A stretch of DNA of 8,882 nt from a virus (IMGVR_UViG_2534681772_000013); one strand, 5' to 3'; positions 56-4,938 are shown, numbered from the stretch's first letter. The notes: generated from the letters alone by a model not told the origin. Program-made: numbers and translations.

Positions 56-83
56 TGAAAAGAAAAAAGGCCGCAGAGCGGCC
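56..83 (-). terminator. Putative intrinsic terminator ending the minus-strand cassette (possibly bidirectional)
   Basis: Perfect 6-bp GC stem GGCCGC(69-74)/GCGGCC(78-83) with 3-nt loop; on the minus strand it is followed by a U-run (plus-strand A-run 56-68). It lies about 110 nt downstream of the stop of the 193..747 gene. Confidence 0.5.
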
Positions 84-192
84 ATAAACACAAACAAAAA
101 TCAACAAGTTAGATAATTATCAAAGACTTACAGACACACAAAAACACAGCCAACCACAACAAATAACAGAGATGTGGTCAATTTGTGGATCA

Positions 193-747
193 TCAGCCAA
201 CAAATTTAGCAACAAATACAGCAACCGCCGCCGTGAAAATGGTTGTGCATACTGGCACAATAATGCCACTCCAACGCCACTTCGTATTATCATCAACCTT
301 GTCAAACCGCCGATTCATCTCATCCATAATCTTGTCAAAGCGTTTATCCATCGCTTCGGTAAGCTCACCCTTCAGGCTGTTAATGTCTGATTTGAGCTGC
401 TCTTTCAGGTGAGCTGTATCAGATTTAAGCTCACCTTTCAGATTCGCAATATCGCATTTAAGATCACCTTTCAGATGAGCAATGTCTGCTTTGAGCTCAC
501 CTTTCACCTCACCAACATCGGCTTTGGTTGAGAGGTTTGTAGTGCGTTCAGCAAGCGTCGCAAGGTCGTTTCTTGTTAGCGATAAATCACTTTCGAGTCG
601 CTCAATTCGCCTTTCAAGTTTATCTGACATTCCACCTCCACTACTGCCGCCATCGCCGCCATGATAAAGCACATCACGCTCAGAATGCGACATACTACCT
701 GCTGAATTACCGAAAAGGTTTCTTGCTACATTACCCATTTTCACCAT
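193..747 (-). CDS. Coiled-coil protein with Gly/Ser-rich N-terminal linker, five hendecad repeats (LKGELKxDIAx) and a single C-terminal transmembrane anchor; function unknown
   Basis: 184-aa ORF from the track. Residues 81-135 form five 11-residue repeats; the C-terminus WRWSGIIVPVCTTIFTAAVAVFVAKFVG is a hydrophobic helix. An internal ATG at 736-738 has an AGGA 8 nt upstream and may be the true start. The start overlaps the stop of the upstream zinc-ribbon gene, suggesting translational coupling. Confidence 0.6.
   Translation of the reverse strand: MVKMGNVARNLFGNSAGSMSHSERDVLYHGGDGGSSGGGMSDKLERRIERLESDLSLTRNDLATLAERTTNLSTKADVGEVKGELKADIAHLKGDLKCDIANLKGELKSDTAHLKEQLKSDINSLKGELTEAMDKRFDKIMDEMNRRFDKVDDNTKWRWSGIIVPVCTTIFTAAVAVFVAKFVG
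343..507. repeat. Five tandem copies of an approximately 33-bp unit encoding the hendecad repeats of the coiled-coil protein
   Basis: Recurring motif visible in the DNA (gagctcacctttcag / gatttaagctcacctttcag / atttaagatcacctttcag) at about 33-bp spacing, matching protein repeats VKGELKADIAH-LKGDLKCDIAN-LKGELKSDTAH-LKEQLKSDINS-LKGELTEAMDK. Confidence 0.6.
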
Positions 748-1093
748 CCTGTGCTTTGTCTTTCTCCAACCACTTCAGCACCGCAGACGTACGGTAAAGG
801 CTCAGGTAACCACAATTCAGGCAATGCAGCGTGTAATAAGTTTTGCGCATATCAGGTATGCTCTTAACATCACCCAAAAAAGTATAAGATACATAATGCT
901 TTATGTTCTCTTTAATTAACTCACTCTGCTCCTCCAAGGGTAGATTGTTAAAATTTTCTGGTTTCTTATTTTTATCCCAGCAAAGATCCATACTTTCAGG
1001 CACAGATAATCGAGACGATCCACATGAAGGGCAGACACTGGAAACCCCCTTCTCAGACAAGAAACGGAAGAAGATTTCTGGCGTAATCTCCAT
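731..1093 (-). CDS. Small zinc-ribbon protein (CPSCG ... CLNCGY), AT-rich, function unknown
   Basis: The track gives 731..1126 (131 aa). The internal ATG at 1091-1093 (MEITPEIFF...) is preceded by a strong SD (TAAGGAGCGGCTG-ATG), whereas the ATG at 1126 has only a weak AAGAAG, so 1093 is preferred. Two CxxC pairs suggest a Zn ribbon. The region is markedly AT-rich compared with the integrase. Confidence 0.55.
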   Translation of the reverse strand: MEITPEIFFRFLSEKGVSSVCPSCGSSRLSVPESMDLCWDKNKKPENFNNLPLEEQSELIKENIKHYVSYTFLGDVKSIPDMRKTYYTLHCLNCGYLSLYRTSAVLKWLEKDKAQDGENG

Positions 1094-1232
1094 CAGCCGC
1101 TCCTTATGTTTATTGACACGACTCATCGACTTCTTATTGATTTCATCAGCTTCTTCTTTGCATTTATCTTCTATATATTTCGATAGTAAATAGTCATATA
1201 ACTCTTTTTTTGTAGGTTTTTTATTTCCATAG

Positions 1233-2210
1233 TTACATTCCTCCCAAGGGATTAAACCTCACCGCATCCTGCAGGTAATCCGGCGCAAGATGGGCATAAA
1301 TCATCGTTGTCTGAATCTTTGCGTGCCCCAGAATTTTCTGGAGCGTCAGAATATTGCCGCCGTTCATCATGAAATGACTGGCGAAGGTGTGGCGCAGCGC
1401 ATGAACAGCCTGGCCGTCAGGAACATCAGGTGCGACCGTTTTGATGACATCGCGAACCAATGGATAATCCAGCGTCGGAAACACCAGTTTCCCGCCCCGT
1501 TTTTTGATCTTTTCAAACAGGCTTTCAGAAATAGGAACGGTACGGTTTTTGCTGTTCTTCGTTTTTGAAAAAGTGATTCGACAATGAAGAACACGGCGCT
1601 GCTCCAGTGCCGCTACCTCGCCCCATCGCGCCCCGGTCGACAGAAGGATTTCGACAGCCAGCCGTTCATCGGGATTTTCAGCCAGTGCATCCAGCAACTG
1701 AACACATTCAGACTTACTCAGATATCCCATTTCGCGCTCGTTAACCTTCATTCCTTTAAGGCCTTGAACGGGGTTATCGTTAAGAAAATGGCCGGATGAG
1801 ATGAGTGCGGTAAACATCGCGCTTAACGCCCCAATCTCTCGATTAATGGTGCTGGGCTGTATCCCCTGCTCTATCCTGGACACACGCAGCTCGGTGAGCA
1901 TCGTTGTATTAAGTTTATGCACGCACGGGTCATCCATTGCCTCACTCAAGCGCAGCAATTTAAGGCGCGTGTTATGCCCTGACTTCATTAGCTGACCGTG
2001 GTATTTCCACCACAAGTCAATAAGCACTGACAGCGGACGGCGATCAATGGAGTTTCCTTTCCACTCATTGTTATGCTGTTGCGCCAGCACCCACCGCTCA
2101 TATAAAACTGCATCCGATTTCGTTTTAAATTTTTTACGAATGCGCTTGCCTTTGCGCCCCTCTGGACGCATGTCAAGAAGATAACCTCCCGGAATTGATT
2201 TTATGCTCAT
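1233..2210 (-). CDS. int: Tyrosine site-specific integrase, P2-family
   Basis: C-terminal catalytic signature HALRHTFASHFMMNGGNILTLQKILGHAKIQTTMIYAHLAPDY (R, H-x-x-R, Y) and an N-terminus MSIKSIPGGYLLDMRPEGRKGKRIRKKFKTKSDAV typical of P2-like integrases. The track ORF extends to 2360, but that extension overlaps the 3' end of the repressor gene in another frame; the ATG at 2208-2210 gives a 326-aa protein of the expected size. Confidence 0.9.
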   Translation of the reverse strand: MSIKSIPGGYLLDMRPEGRKGKRIRKKFKTKSDAVLYERWVLAQQHNNEWKGNSIDRRPLSVLIDLWWKYHGQLMKSGHNTRLKLLRLSEAMDDPCVHKLNTTMLTELRVSRIEQGIQPSTINREIGALSAMFTALISSGHFLNDNPVQGLKGMKVNEREMGYLSKSECVQLLDALAENPDERLAVEILLSTGARWGEVAALEQRRVLHCRITFSKTKNSKNRTVPISESLFEKIKKRGGKLVFPTLDYPLVRDVIKTVAPDVPDGQAVHALRHTFASHFMMNGGNILTLQKILGHAKIQTTMIYAHLAPDYLQDAVRFNPLGGM

Positions 2211-2259: not shown

Positions 2260-2570
2260 TTAGCCGGGCTGTGTGCCAGTCTTGCGGGATTTTTGAGAAG
2301 ACGATGTGTTTTCTGGCCCATCAGGGGAGAGAGAGGGACTGATCTGCCCTGCAGCCTCATTTGTTTTTCCCGTCATAAGCCATATAGTGTATTTTTCGAA
2401 ATCCTTAGAATTAATTACGCGATCAACAACGCTTAAACCAACCTCTCTTTTACCGCTCTCATAATTCTTTATAGTTCCGAGATTTATCCCAGTAACATCA
2501 GCAAACTCAGCTTGAGTTAACCCTTCACTTTTCCGTATCTCTTTCAGTTTTTTTCGTACCCACTTGACAT
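2260..2570 (-). pseudogene. C: P2 C-type immunity repressor (XRE-family HTH), interrupted by a 1-nt frameshift in an A7 homopolymer
   Basis: ATG at 2568-2570 reads MSSGYEKN then stops. Shifting by 1 nt at the A7 run (plus T-run 2548-2554) gives MSSGYEKKLKEIRKSEGLTQAEFADVTGINLGTIKNYESGKREVGLSVVDRVINSKDFEKYTIWLMTGKTNEAAGQISPSLSPDGPENTSSSQKSRKTGTQPG (about 103 aa). This has a clear HTH and, from memory, a P2 C-like C-terminal tail. Position and orientation relative to int match P2. Confidence 0.55.
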
Positions 2571-3619: not shown

Positions 3620-4525
3620 CTATATTTCCAGACATCTGTTATCACTTAACCCATTACAAGCCCGCTGCCGCAGATATTCCCGTGGCGAGCGATAACCCAG
3701 CGCACTATGCGGATGCCATTCGTTATAATGCTCGAACGCCTCTGCAAGGTTCTTTGCTGCCGTTAACCCGTCTGGTTTGGGCATGATACTGATGTAGTCA
3801 CGCTTTATCGTTTTCACGAAGCTCTCTGCTATTCCGTTACTCTCCGGACTCCGCACCGCCGTGTTCTTCGGTTCAAGTCCCAACATCCGGGCGAACTGGC
3901 GTGTTTCATTAGCCCGGTAGCATGAACCATTATCCGTCAGCCACTCCACTGGAGACGACGGAAGATCGTTGCCGAAGCGGCGTTCCACCGCTCCCAGCAT
4001 GACGTCCTGTACTGTTTCACTGTTGAAGCCGCCGGTAGTGACCGCCCAGTGCAGTGCCTCACGATCACAGCAGTCCAGCGCGAACGTGACACGCAGTCTC
4101 TCTCCGTTATCACAGCAGAACTCGAACCCGTCAGAGCACCATCGCTGATTGCTTTCTTTCACGGCCACTCTGCCTGTATGTGCCCGTTTCGATGGCGGTA
4201 CAGCAGGTTTTCGCTCAAGCAACAGCGCATTCTGGCGCATGATCCGGTAAACACGTTTGGCATTGATCGCAGGCATACCATCAAGTTCTGCCTGTCTGCG
4301 AAGCAGCGCCCATACCCGACGATAACCATACGTGGGCAGCTCTCCGATAACATGGTGTATACGGAGAAGCACATCCGTATCATCAGTGTGACGACTGCGG
4401 CGGCCATCCATCCAGTCATCGGTTCGTCTGAGAATGACGTGCAACTGCGCACGCGACACCCGGAGACAACGGCTGACTAAGCTTACTCCCCATCCCCGGG
4501 CAATAAGGGCGCGTGCGCTATCCAC
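3620..4525 (-). CDS. insD: IS2 transposase OrfB (DDE integrase domain)
   Basis: 301-aa translation matches IS2 InsD as recalled ([34 protein letters not shown] ... [14 protein letters not shown]). Confidence 0.93.
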
Positions 4526-4848
4526 TTTTTTGCCCGTCCATATTCAACGGCTTCTTTGAGGAGTTCATTTTCCATCGTTTTCTTGCCGAGCAGGCGCTGG
4601 AGTTCTTTAATCTGCTTCATGGCGGCAGCAAGTTCAGAGGCAGGAACAACCTGTTCTCCGGCGGCGACAGCAGTAAGACTTCCTTCCTGGTATTGCTTAC
4701 GCCAGAGAAATAACTGGCTGGCTGCTACACCATGTTGCCGGGCAACGAGGGAGACCGTCATCCCCGGTTCAAAGCTCTGCTGAACAATTGCGATCTTTTC
4801 CTGTGTGGTACGCCGTCTGCGTTTCTCCGGCCCTAAGACATCAATCAT
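4483..4848 (-). CDS. insC: IS2 transposase OrfA (HTH)
   Basis: Translation from the internal ATG at 4846-4848 is [56 protein letters not shown]... (121 aa). The track's longer 136-aa start lies in the IS2 terminal region and is not the native start. Confidence 0.9.
4506..4512 (-). other. IS2 programmed -1 ribosomal frameshift heptamer A-AAA-AAG (produces the InsCD fusion transposase)
   Basis: Minus-strand GCA-AAA-AAG-TGG in the insC frame, located in the insC/insD overlap, as is typical for the IS3 family. Confidence 0.7.
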
Positions 4849-4938
4849 CTGTTCTCCAATGACTAGTCTAAAAACTAGTATTAAGACTATCACTTATTTA
4901 AGTGATACTGGTTGTCTGGAGATTCAGGGGGGCAGTCT

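What the first reader, a model, noticed from the sequence alone, without database searches (positions are those of the whole stretch)
343..507. Five tandem 33-bp repeats encoding an 11-residue periodic coiled coil
Near-exact DNA tandem repeats inside a coding region are prone to slipped-strand expansion and contraction, so the length of the coiled-coil stalk could vary between strains. Hendecad periodicity with a C-terminal membrane anchor loosely recalls membrane-tethered repeat proteins.
Basis: seen in the sequence. Interest (0 to 1): 0.45.

Follow-up and report, generated by a model that had tools for sequence, protein, structure and literature searches.

The report
Variable-length membrane-anchored coiled-coil prophage protein
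The 33-bp repeats are real and encode the 11-residue stalk units of a small membrane-anchored coiled-coil protein carried by a P2-like prophage; the protein is a relative of the Borrelia Bdr / DUF1640 family, and strains differ by whole units (2 to 7), but its function is still unknown.

Summary
Window 364-528 (minus strand) has five in-frame 33-bp units. Adjacent units are 58-85% identical, so they are not "near-exact". Two more 11-residue units of a second type lie at 298-363.

They sit in a 145-aa (or 181-aa) gene at the end of a P2-like prophage inserted upstream of btuC. The order is C repressor, integrase, zinc-ribbon protein, this gene, terminator.

The protein has an N-terminal helix, then the beta-layer motif L-S-T-K-A-D that marks DUF1640 proteins. 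A continuous hendecad helix follows (period 3.69), then a C-terminal membrane helix.

Homologues with 90-100% identical flanks carry 2, 3, 4, 5, 6 or 7 units. At DNA level these are clean 33- or 66-bp indels or duplications. Five is by far the commonest count (29 of 30 viral contigs; 36 of 36 complete E. coli genomes with the full-length gene), so this is slow polymorphism, not a hypermutable switch.

The protein is detectably related to Borrelia Bdr proteins and to phage DUF1640 proteins (Liberibacter SC1, APSE-1). The wider family has thousands of members with the same plan. A homologous four-Cys zinc-ribbon gene always precedes it in P2-like prophages.

Function is unknown here and for Bdr. 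It is a new member of a known kind.

The parts
364..528 (-). Array of five in-frame 33-bp units encoding 11-residue (hendecad) stalk units: TKADVGEVKGE, LKADIAHLKGD, LKCDIANLKGE, LKSDTAHLKEQ, LKSDINSLKGE
   Evidence: TRF period 33; register and unit identities; lag-33 control; unit-number variants in homologues
298..363 (-). Two further 11-residue units of a second type (LTEAMDKRFDK, IMDEMNRRFDK) that continue the same helix. One allele family lacks the second of these.
517..534 (-). Beta-layer motif L-S-T-K-A-D at the start of the stalk. T, K and D are the most conserved residues of the family.
   Evidence: Motif definition in PMC4786415; conservation in alignment A1; the AF2 helix breaks exactly at L-S-T
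535..630 (-). N-terminal helix (MSDKLERRIERLESDLSLTRNDLATLAERTTN), starting at the ATG that RefSeq uses as the start (628-630). The SD-like GGAGGTGGA lies just upstream.
631..738 (-). Possible N-terminal extension (about 36 residues, predicted disordered, ending in a Gly-rich run). Its ATG (736-738) overlaps the stop of the upstream gene (ATGGGTAA). Whether it is translated is unresolved.
   Evidence: Frame open in at least 5 unrelated allele types; in-frame indels of 18 and 27 nt; but substitutions spread evenly over codon positions
199..291 (-). C-terminal membrane anchor: the invariant Trp of 'TKWRW', then the hydrophobic helix GIIVPVCTTIFTAAVAVFVA. Only about 4 residues follow it. Stop codon at 193-195.
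193..630 (-). Coding sequence of the DUF1640 / Bdr-like protein (145 aa as in RefSeq; 181 aa if the ATG at 736-738 is used)
59..83 (-). Intrinsic terminator-like hairpin GGCCGCTCTGCGGCC plus a T-run, downstream of the gene. It could belong to the prophage operon or to the host site.
731..1230 (-). Upstream partner gene: a four-Cys zinc-ribbon protein (166 aa when intact). In the window it is frameshifted by an A6 tract at 1217-1222, where most copies have A7.
1233..2210 (-). P2-type tyrosine integrase, immediately upstream on the same strand
2260..2570 (-). C-type HTH repressor gene heading the same-strand gene string. In the window it is frameshifted by an A7 tract at 2548-2554, where TW10590 has A8.

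Best explanation
The repeats encode the stalk of a small tail-anchored inner-membrane protein of the DUF1640 / Bdr type, carried as cargo at the integrase end of a P2-like prophage.

Shown here:
- The protein has an N-terminal helix, a beta-layer motif (LSTKAD), about 75 residues of continuous helix with 11/3 (hendecad) periodicity, and one C-terminal transmembrane helix.
- Each 33-bp unit encodes exactly one hendecad.
- Strains differ by whole units (2-7, modal 5) between otherwise near-identical flanks.
- The gene always follows a homologous four-Cys zinc-ribbon gene, on the same strand as the repressor and integrase.

Inferred:
- The protein forms a parallel trimer, because beta-layers are a feature of trimeric coiled coils.
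- The bulk of the protein lies in the cytoplasm, because there is no signal peptide, Lys/Arg residues precede the TM helix, and almost nothing follows it.
- Rare unequal recombination or replication slippage between the diverged units adds or removes one hendecad, about 1.6 nm. This leaves the core register and the orientation of the head unchanged, so length variants stay functional.
- The protein works as a membrane-anchored spacer or scaffold. It holds its N-terminal helix, and probably the co-translated zinc-ribbon partner, at a set distance under the inner membrane.
- It is expressed in the lysogen from the repressor-integrase operon. It therefore serves the prophage, through protection against other phages or through prophage/replicon maintenance, rather than virion assembly or lysis.

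The biological process it acts on is not known. The confidence given applies to the structural and genetic account as a whole. The specific 'protects the prophage against other phages' step alone I would put at about 0.25.
For: Repeat and periodicity.

Structure: AF2 gives helix 37-68, a break at L69-S70-T71, helix 72-146 (pLDDT above 90 over residues 81-120) and helix 150-180.

Family motif: [aliphatic]-A-T-K-[polar]-[DE] at the start of the stalk of DUF1640 membrane proteins, and beta-layers in trimers (PMC4786415). T71, K72, D74 and W154 are the conserved columns of alignment A1.

Solved relative: the A1 profile hits PDB 6H9L at E 1.2e-10. That entry has three chains and tandem ATKEDIEALRK 11-mers.

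Unit-number variants: a 66-bp deletion (L007, 3' flank 362/363 identical), a 33-bp deletion with a hybrid junction unit (L009), a unit duplication (L012), and three copies against one of a unit (L014 vs L003). Across protein clusters, 36 of 38 scorable spans are exact multiples of 11 residues, with 2-7 units.

Context: the order C, int, Zn-ribbon, this gene is the same in TW10590 and in all variants. It also holds in Klebsiella and in other att sites. The pair was present in all 30 IMG/VR loci found with this protein and in 21 of 21 loci found with two other partner alleles and having enough downstream DNA. The partner alleles are homologous, with invariant CxSCG...CxxCG.

Relatives on other mobile elements: Borrelia Bdr, Liberibacter phage SC1 gp26, APSE-1 P47. 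The family has 5,564 representative clusters. Of 135 short top hits, 110 have a C-terminal TM helix and unit chains run from 2 to 11.
Against: - No experiment and no annotated relative gives a function. Bdr function is 'yet to be discovered' (PMC10016077), and papers mentioning DUF1640 give no bacterial function.
- The trimer state, topology and partner binding were not tested. The AF2 model is a monomer with pTM 0.33.
- The window protein scores 26.2 bits against PF07798, below the 33.5 cut-off.
- No anti-phage defence model matches beyond coiled-coil noise.
- Co-transcription with C and int is inferred only from gene order and the lack of a promoter-like site between them.
- The gene is disrupted by IS elements in two genomes. 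Most prophages at this att site carry other cargo instead. It is therefore dispensable.
- The unit number hardly varies within the common allele, so any 'tuning' by length may be neutral drift.
Confidence: 0.6

Rival explanations
1. Replicon tether. The protein anchors phage or plasmid DNA, or its replication/partition machinery, to the inner membrane, with the zinc-ribbon partner as the DNA- or protein-binding end. This is a rival for the process served, not for the structure.
For: Family members sit next to replication or maintenance genes on several mobile elements. Liberibacter SC1 gp26 directly follows the P4-type primase. APSE-1 P47 lies between the DNA polymerase and the SSB/exonuclease genes. 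The B. miyamotoi bdr lies near a plasmid maintenance gene. All cp32s carry a bdr allele adjacent to the replication locus (PMC10016077). Small Col(156) plasmids carry a DUF1640 ORF. The partner's only structural resemblance is to TFIIS/Rpb9-type zinc ribbons.
Confidence: 0.15
2. Surface-lying amphipathic 11-mer helix. Like apolipoprotein, alpha-synuclein or LEA repeats, the array lies on the membrane surface and senses or remodels lipid rather than forming a coiled-coil stalk.
For: The top Pfam hit is Apolipoprotein A1/A4/E (E 5e-6). The PDB profile search finds ApoA-IV at E 2e-4. The 11/3 periodicity is shared with those families.
Against: The Apolipoprotein score of 26.8 is far below the 90-bit cut-off. 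The hydrophobic stripe is narrow, only 3 of 11 positions (L1, I5, L8), and is flanked by Lys on one side and Asp on the other. That is the pattern of a coiled-coil core with inter-helix salt bridges, not a wide lipid-binding face (read from the sequence; established coiled-coil knowledge). The array also starts with a beta-layer motif typical of trimers.
Confidence: 0.08
3. Contingency locus. The repeats are a hypermutable tract that switches or varies the protein at high frequency, for example for immune or phage evasion.
For: In-frame tandem repeats with real copy-number polymorphism. One allele (L014) has three nearly identical consecutive units.
Against: Units are only 58-85% identical, with shared exact runs of about 11-13 nt. 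Five units are found in 29 of 30 viral contigs and in 36 of 36 complete genomes with the full-length gene. Changes never shift the frame, and the predicted location is cytoplasmic. [quoted passage not shown]
Confidence: 0.05
4. Lysis accessory. A coiled coil plus a C-terminal TM helix recalls XhlA or spanin-type proteins, so the protein may help membrane disruption at the end of the lytic cycle.
For: Weak profile hits: PHROG Rz-like spanin at E 0.0047, and XhlA at E 0.0011 for the Liberibacter homologue.
Against: The gene lies on the repressor/integrase strand at the att end, away from any late or lysis genes. The hits fall in the coiled-coil noise range and below the cut-offs.
Confidence: 0.05

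Closest known systems
Borrelia Bdr (Borrelia direct repeat) proteins
   Same: Both have tandem 11-residue units with nearly the same consensus ((D/E)LKSDIxxxK(S/G)). Unit number varies between strains: bdrT has about 9 against about 6 repeats in B31 and N40 (PMC3303823). Both have a 'KW..G' motif followed by a C-terminal hydrophobic anchor. Bdr is inner-membrane associated (PMC2525819, PMC10016077). Both are carried on prophage or plasmid replicons. Function is unknown for both. Similarity is measurable: tblastn E 1e-6, BLASTP E 2e-13 at 34% identity.
   Different: The conserved Bdr N-terminal domain (NCBIfam NF040499) is absent from the window protein but present in the B. miyamotoi Bdr at E 7e-23. 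The B. miyamotoi Bdr examined here has no (A/S)TKxD motif. No zinc-ribbon partner gene was annotated next to that B. miyamotoi bdr. The host and element differ: E. coli and a P2-like prophage.
DUF1640 / CCDC90-like family (Pfam PF07798; human MCUR1 and CCDC90B; PDB 6H9L)
   Same: Both have the beta-layer motif at the start of the stalk, then a coiled-coil stalk and a C-terminal TM anchor (PMC4786415). RefSeq names the E. coli protein 'DUF1640 domain-containing' or 'CCDC90 family'. The family profile hits 6H9L at E 1.2e-10. In MCUR1 the coiled coil faces the matrix, which is the topological equivalent of the bacterial cytoplasm (bioRxiv 10.1101/2025.10.14.682030).
   Different: The window protein scores below the Pfam cut-off (26.2 against 33.5). 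It has no globular head, only a 32-residue helix. In 6H9L each 11-mer carries the full ATK-x-D motif, whereas here only the first unit does; later units have Leu in place of Thr, and AF2 models them as continuous helix. MCUR1 is a mitochondrial scaffold, and no such role can be transferred.
Phage DUF1640 proteins: Liberibacter phage SC1/SC2 gp26 and Hamiltonella phage APSE-1 P47
   Same: The plan is the same: head, ATKAD motif, 4-5 tandem 11-mers (ELKQDIANVRT; IADVRKDLSAE), 'KW', then a TM helix. BLASTP E is 3e-19 against SC1 gp26.
   Different: The genomic neighbourhood differs: these genes sit beside replication genes and have no zinc-ribbon partner. They are also uncharacterised.

Membership tests
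DUF1640 / CCDC90-like (PF07798) | Score at or above Pfam's gathering cut-off | tested here: inconclusive
   The window protein scores 26.2 bits, E 8e-6, against a cut-off of 33.5. Relatives with the same plan pass: B. miyamotoi Bdr 45.1 and APSE-1 P47 34.8. RefSeq labels the E. coli gene DUF1640/CCDC90.
DUF1640 / CCDC90-like (PF07798) | Beta-layer motif [aliphatic]-A-T-K-[polar]-[DE] at the beginning of the C-terminal stalk (PMC4786415) | tested here: met
   L-S-T-K-A-D lies at the first repeat unit. T, K and D are conserved in at least 90% of 28 homologues. The AF2 helix breaks at exactly L-S-T.
DUF1640 / CCDC90-like (PF07798) | Integral membrane protein with a C-terminal transmembrane anchor | tested here: met
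   A 20-residue hydrophobic segment at the extreme C-terminus, modelled as helix 150-180, with an invariant Trp at its start. Membrane insertion itself was not tested.
DUF1640 / CCDC90-like (PF07798) | Parallel trimeric coiled coil | not testable with these tools
   Only a monomer model could be made. The trimer is inferred from the beta-layer motif and from the three chains of 6H9L.
Borrelia Bdr family | Conserved Bdr N-terminal domain (NCBIfam NF040499 Bdr_N_group1) | tested here: not met
   The window protein has no hit at E up to 1. B. miyamotoi Bdr hits at 7.3e-23. The window protein is therefore related to Bdr but is not a Bdr family member in the narrow sense.
Borrelia Bdr family | Central tandem 11-residue repeats whose number varies between alleles | tested here: met
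   2-7 units among close homologues. The unit consensus is shared with Bdr.
Borrelia Bdr family | C-terminal hydrophobic anchor and inner-membrane localisation | tested here: inconclusive
   The anchor is present and aligns with that of Bdr. Localisation cannot be tested here.
Simple-sequence contingency (phase-variable) loci | Identical or near-identical short units giving high-frequency copy-number change | tested here: not met
   Units are 58-85% identical. Five units are found in 29 of 30 viral contigs and in 36 of 36 complete genomes with the full-length gene.
Apolipoprotein / LEA-type 11-mer amphipathic repeats | Family profile match above the cut-off and a wide lipid-binding hydrophobic face | tested here: not met
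   PF01442 scores 26.8 bits against a cut-off of 90. Only 3 of 11 positions are hydrophobic.
Known anti-phage defence systems (PADLOC-DB v2) | Match of either gene of the pair to a defence-system protein model | tested here: not met
   The stalk protein gives only coiled-coil-type hits to LmuB, ZorA and LeoBC at E of 5e-5 or weaker. The partner gives none.

The most novel reading that the evidence does not exclude
The zinc-ribbon protein and the Bdr-like stalk protein form a previously unrecognised two-gene function expressed from the lysogeny operon of P2-like prophages. It could be a membrane-based phage-exclusion or prophage-maintenance device, in which the number of hendecads sets a working distance from the membrane. 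Because the stalk protein is homologous to Borrelia Bdr and to DUF1640 proteins of many phages and plasmids, solving it in E. coli would reveal what this whole family does on mobile elements.
Probability: 0.15. Interest if true: 0.7.

Novelty: new member of a known kind. Interest (0 to 1): 0.4.

Why it matters
Bdr proteins have been known for about 25 years and still have no function. Bacterial DUF1640 proteins are likewise uncharacterised, although the family runs to thousands of clusters and includes human MCUR1 and CCDC90B.

This locus puts a clear relative into E. coli, on a P2-like prophage. It has a conserved partner gene and natural 2- to 7-unit length variants. That gives a genetically easy system in which to ask what the family does and whether stalk length matters.

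The finding itself is modest. It is a correct reading of a repeat-encoded coiled coil, with a real but slow length polymorphism.

Tried and rejected
- Foldseek of the stalk model against the PDB gave nothing usable, as expected for a single long helix (best E 7.6).
- PADLOC, NCBIfam and PHROGs gave no functional label. PHROG 9415 (stalk protein) and 4293 (partner) are 'unknown function'.
- Two alignment-based locus searches failed for lack of a conserved block. A scan of one genome per species with a partner alignment found nothing.
- The Adlakha et al. 2019 Structure paper on MCUR1/CCDC90B and the primary Bdr papers (PMC116504, PMC2640845) are not held. A search for the PDB codes 6H9L, 6H9M, 7O92 and 7OAH in papers found nothing, so the source organism of 6H9L is unknown to me.
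- I tried to settle the start codon. The upstream frame is open in every allele type and its indels are in frame. However, substitutions are spread evenly over codon positions (7/6/8 and 4/6/5). The question stays open.
- I considered that the frameshift in the partner gene might be a biological phase switch. I rejected that as the first choice because the window has a second -1 difference in another poly-A run, in the repressor gene. That pattern is typical of homopolymer sequencing error.

Full report
**1. The observation**

The window has a 33-bp periodic array on the minus strand. Tandem Repeats Finder reports period 33 at 402-506 and 402-525, with 3.2-3.8 copies, 74-77% matches and scores of 126 and 115.

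Read in the frame of the minus-strand ORF 193..747, the units are TKADVGEVKGE, LKADIAHLKGD, LKCDIANLKGE, LKSDTAHLKEQ and LKSDINSLKGE. They occupy window 364-528. Two 11-mers of a second type follow, LTEAMDKRFDK and IMDEMNRRFDK, at 298-363.

Lag-33 self-identity reaches 0.70 over 132 nt at position 362. That is the top value for any lag from 6 to 60 in the whole window. Random first-order Markov windows never exceeded 0.41.

The coordinates are 21 nt out of register, and 'near-exact' overstates the similarity. Adjacent units are 58-85% identical, and the longest shared exact runs are about 11-13 nt.

**2. The gene and its surroundings**

RefSeq annotates the identical sequence in E. coli TW10590 as a 145-aa 'DUF1640 domain-containing protein'; other genomes label it 'CCDC90 family protein'.

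It is the last gene of a P2-like prophage inserted just upstream of btuC. On one strand the order is:
- HTH repressor (C-type)
- tyrosine integrase
- a hypothetical protein of about 130-166 aa
- this gene
- a strong terminator-like hairpin at window 69-83

The other strand carries a Cox-like gene and the replication endonuclease (gpA-like). A Klebsiella P2-like genome shows that the pair lies between int and the phage attachment end, followed by tail genes. It is therefore phage cargo, not host DNA.

About 260 further E. coli genomes have the same type of prophage at the same site, sharing only window 100-193 with this one. In the three I opened, the same slot holds other contents. Two have an unrelated single 131-aa ORF (E2348/69; strain 08_4358). 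One has a divergent version of the same pair (ETEC1703). The int-att junction is thus a variable cargo slot.

**3. Protein anatomy**

AlphaFold2 was run on an alignment of 28 homologues and gave mean pLDDT 72.5, above 90 across residues 81-120. In numbering of the 181-aa form it predicts:
- residues 1-36 disordered
- helix 37-68
- a three-residue break at L69-S70-T71
- one uninterrupted helix 72-146 through all repeat units
- a short break, then helix 150-180, the hydrophobic C-terminus

The most conserved columns of the alignment are T71, K72 and D74, plus W154 at the membrane edge.

Hartmann et al. (eLife 2016, PMC4786415) describe the motif [aliphatic]-A-T-K-[polar]-[DE] as a beta-layer. 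This is a three-residue beta element that interrupts trimeric coiled coils. [quoted passage not shown] Here the motif is L-S-T-K-A-D. It sits exactly where the array starts, and the model breaks at exactly its first three residues.

The stalk's hydrophobic periodicity peaks at 3.69 residues per turn (11/3 = 3.67). Power at the heptad value of 3.5 is essentially zero, and 1 of 300 shuffles reached the observed peak. Core positions are L1, I5 and L8 of each unit, flanked by Lys and Asp. That pattern fits a coiled-coil core rather than a lipid-binding face.

A profile of the family hits PDB 6H9L at E 1.2e-10. That entry is an 'uncharacterized protein' with three chains and tandem ATKEDIEALRK 11-mers.

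The trimer state and the cytoplasmic location of the stalk are inferences. The grounds are the beta-layer motif, the absence of a signal peptide, basic residues before the TM helix and almost nothing after it. There is also an analogy with MCUR1, whose coiled coil faces the matrix.

**4. Length polymorphism**

Forty-eight homologous protein clusters were found, mostly from E. coli, Salmonella, Citrobacter and Klebsiella. Their lengths fall on a ladder with 11-residue steps.

I counted units between the TKxD motif and the EAMDKRFD block. Of 38 scorable clusters, 36 have spans that are exact multiples of 11:

| Units | Clusters |
|---|---|
| 2 | 3 |
| 3 | 7 |
| 4 | 14 |
| 5 | 7 (162 member sequences) |
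| 6 | 3 |
| 7 | 2 |

At DNA level the variants lie at the same locus and differ by clean events:
- L007/L008 lack units 2-3, a 66-bp deletion; the 3' flank is 362/363 identical to the window.
- L009-L011 lack one unit and carry a hybrid junction unit.
- L012/L013 have unit 3 duplicated (32/33 identical).
- In a second allele family, L014 has three copies of LKADIAHLKGE where L003 has one.

Assembly collapse is unlikely. The units are distinguishable, and the same counts recur in independent assemblies (10 contigs for the 3-unit form, 8 for a 4-unit form).

The common allele is very stable. All 36 complete E. coli genomes that carry the gene at full length align without a 33-bp indel. Among viral contigs, 29 of 30 have five units and one has six. 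The ETEC1703-type allele is 109 aa in all 18 complete loci where it was seen.

It is a slow polymorphism, consistent with rare unequal recombination or slippage between diverged units. It is not a contingency switch.

Each unit is a complete hendecad, three helical turns in the coiled-coil frame. Whole-unit changes therefore alter stalk length by about 1.6 nm without changing the core register. That follows from established coiled-coil geometry, not from a measurement here.

**5. Relatives**

A tblastn search of plasmids returned 18 records. Sixteen are Borrelia genes annotated 'Bdr family repetitive protein' (E about 1e-6, 33-35% identity over about 80% of the query).

Pairwise BLASTP against a B. 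miyamotoi Bdr gives E 2e-13. The alignment covers both the array (ELKSDIMSVKS / DLKSDIMSVKS) and the 'KW..G' plus TM end. That Bdr passes Pfam PF07798 at 45.1 bits against a 33.5 cut-off.

In phage genomes the relatives are Liberibacter phage SC1/SC2 gp26 and APSE-1 P47. SC1 gp26 reads ATKADL, then four ELKQDIANVRT units, then TKWFMG and a TM helix; BLASTP E is 3e-19. P47 has five IADVRKDLSAE units.

A profile search of 1.84 billion representative proteins found 5,564 clusters at E up to 1e-3 and 791 at E up to 1e-10. Among 135 short top hits, 110 have a C-terminal TM helix, 79 match a strict beta-layer pattern, and unit chains run from 2 to 11.

The window protein lacks the Bdr N-terminal domain (NCBIfam NF040499). 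It is a relative of Bdr, not a Bdr protein in the narrow sense. It scores just under the PF07798 cut-off (26.2 bits) while meeting the motif and anchor criteria.

The literature held here says the following:
- Bdr proteins are inner-membrane associated and carried on cp32 prophages and plasmids.
- bdrT has about 9 repeats in B31 and about 6 in its 99.4% identical N40 orthologue.
- Bdr function is unknown (PMC3303823, PMC2525819, PMC10016077).
- None of the 13 held papers that mention DUF1640 gives a bacterial function.

**6. The partner gene**

The upstream ORF differs strongly between alleles (21-57% identity) but is homologous throughout. It has invariant C-x-S-C-G ... C-x-x-C-G ... Y ... 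W, which is a four-Cys zinc ribbon.

The pair occurs together in every P2/186-like prophage examined, including Klebsiella and other integration sites. It was present in all 30 IMG/VR loci found with this protein. It was also present in 21 of 21 viral contigs found with two other partner alleles that had enough downstream DNA.

**7. Start codon, unresolved**

RefSeq starts the stalk protein at the ATG at 628-630, which is preceded by GGAGGTGGA. Other gene callers start about 36 codons upstream, at an ATG or GTG that overlaps or abuts the partner's stop (ATGGGTAA in the window).

For the long form:
- The frame is open in at least five unrelated sequence types.
- It always ends in a Gly-rich run.
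- Observed indels are 18 and 27 nt.

Against it:
- Substitutions are evenly spread over codon positions (7/6/8 and 4/6/5).
- The internal Met is conserved.

Both forms may be made. The repeat array is unaffected either way.

**8. What it most likely does**

The structural reading is well supported: a tail-anchored protein, probably a trimeric hendecad stalk, built from repeat units. The process it serves is not known.

I commit to a membrane-anchored spacer or scaffold acting with the zinc-ribbon partner in the lysogen, for the benefit of the prophage. Exclusion of other phages is my first guess, and a replicon or maintenance tether is the main alternative.

The grounds are these:
- The gene lies on the repressor-integrase strand at the att end.
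- It occupies a variable cargo slot.
- It is dispensable, with IS insertions in strains M1/5 and 300709.
- Family members recur on phages and plasmids, often beside replication genes.

No known defence model matches.

**9. Verdict**

The feature is a new member of a known but functionally uncharacterised family. Its main value is that it offers a tractable E. coli system, with natural length variants and a conserved partner, for a family whose function has long been open.

Noticed in passing
window 1217-1222: The zinc-ribbon partner gene has an A6 tract just after its ATG, where 19 of 21 related loci have A7. In the window it is therefore frameshifted at about codon 4. One IMG/VR contig (L022) shares A6.
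   Followed up: yes
window 2548-2554: The C-type repressor gene has A7 where TW10590 has A8, so it is also frameshifted and does not appear as an ORF. Two -1 differences, both in poly-A runs, suggest homopolymer sequencing errors in the source assembly rather than biology.
   Followed up: partly
window 3620-4893: Two overlapping minus-strand ORFs (136 aa and 301 aa) look like an IS3-family transposase pair. They are IS2-like by my recollection, which was not tested. They are inserted in the early region of the prophage, and TW10590 has no such insertion there.
   Followed up: no
L019:4591-4986; L021:4591-4986; L020:4610-5408: The slot between int and the prophage end is variable cargo. E2348/69-type prophages carry an unrelated 131-aa ORF. 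ETEC1703 carries a divergent zinc-ribbon plus stalk pair (109-aa protein: FATKSDV, three 11-mers, TM helix).
   Followed up: partly
L035 (IMG/VR contig), Gly-rich region upstream of the internal ATG: An in-frame 27-nt expansion, (DGG)x3, lies in the Gly-rich run before the internal Met. This is a second small repeat polymorphism in the same gene region.
   Followed up: no
L002:2823-4337 and L006:4022-5675: The stalk gene is disrupted by IS elements in two complete genomes. In strain M1/5, ISEc52 removes the N-terminus. In strain 300709, an IS3-family element removes the membrane anchor.
   Followed up: partly
P0049 (3006 aa), P0081 (1723 aa) and other long hits: Some very long proteins contain dozens of related 11/22-residue units (e.g. 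NVTILRGEIDSNLATARTDLQS) between beta-rich regions. The same repeat type therefore also builds long fibres that lack a membrane anchor. Some of these look like phage fibre proteins.
   Followed up: no
window 628-738: A conserved internal Met with a strong SD-like sequence lies inside an upstream frame that is always open. This raises the possibility of two protein forms made from two starts.
   Followed up: partly
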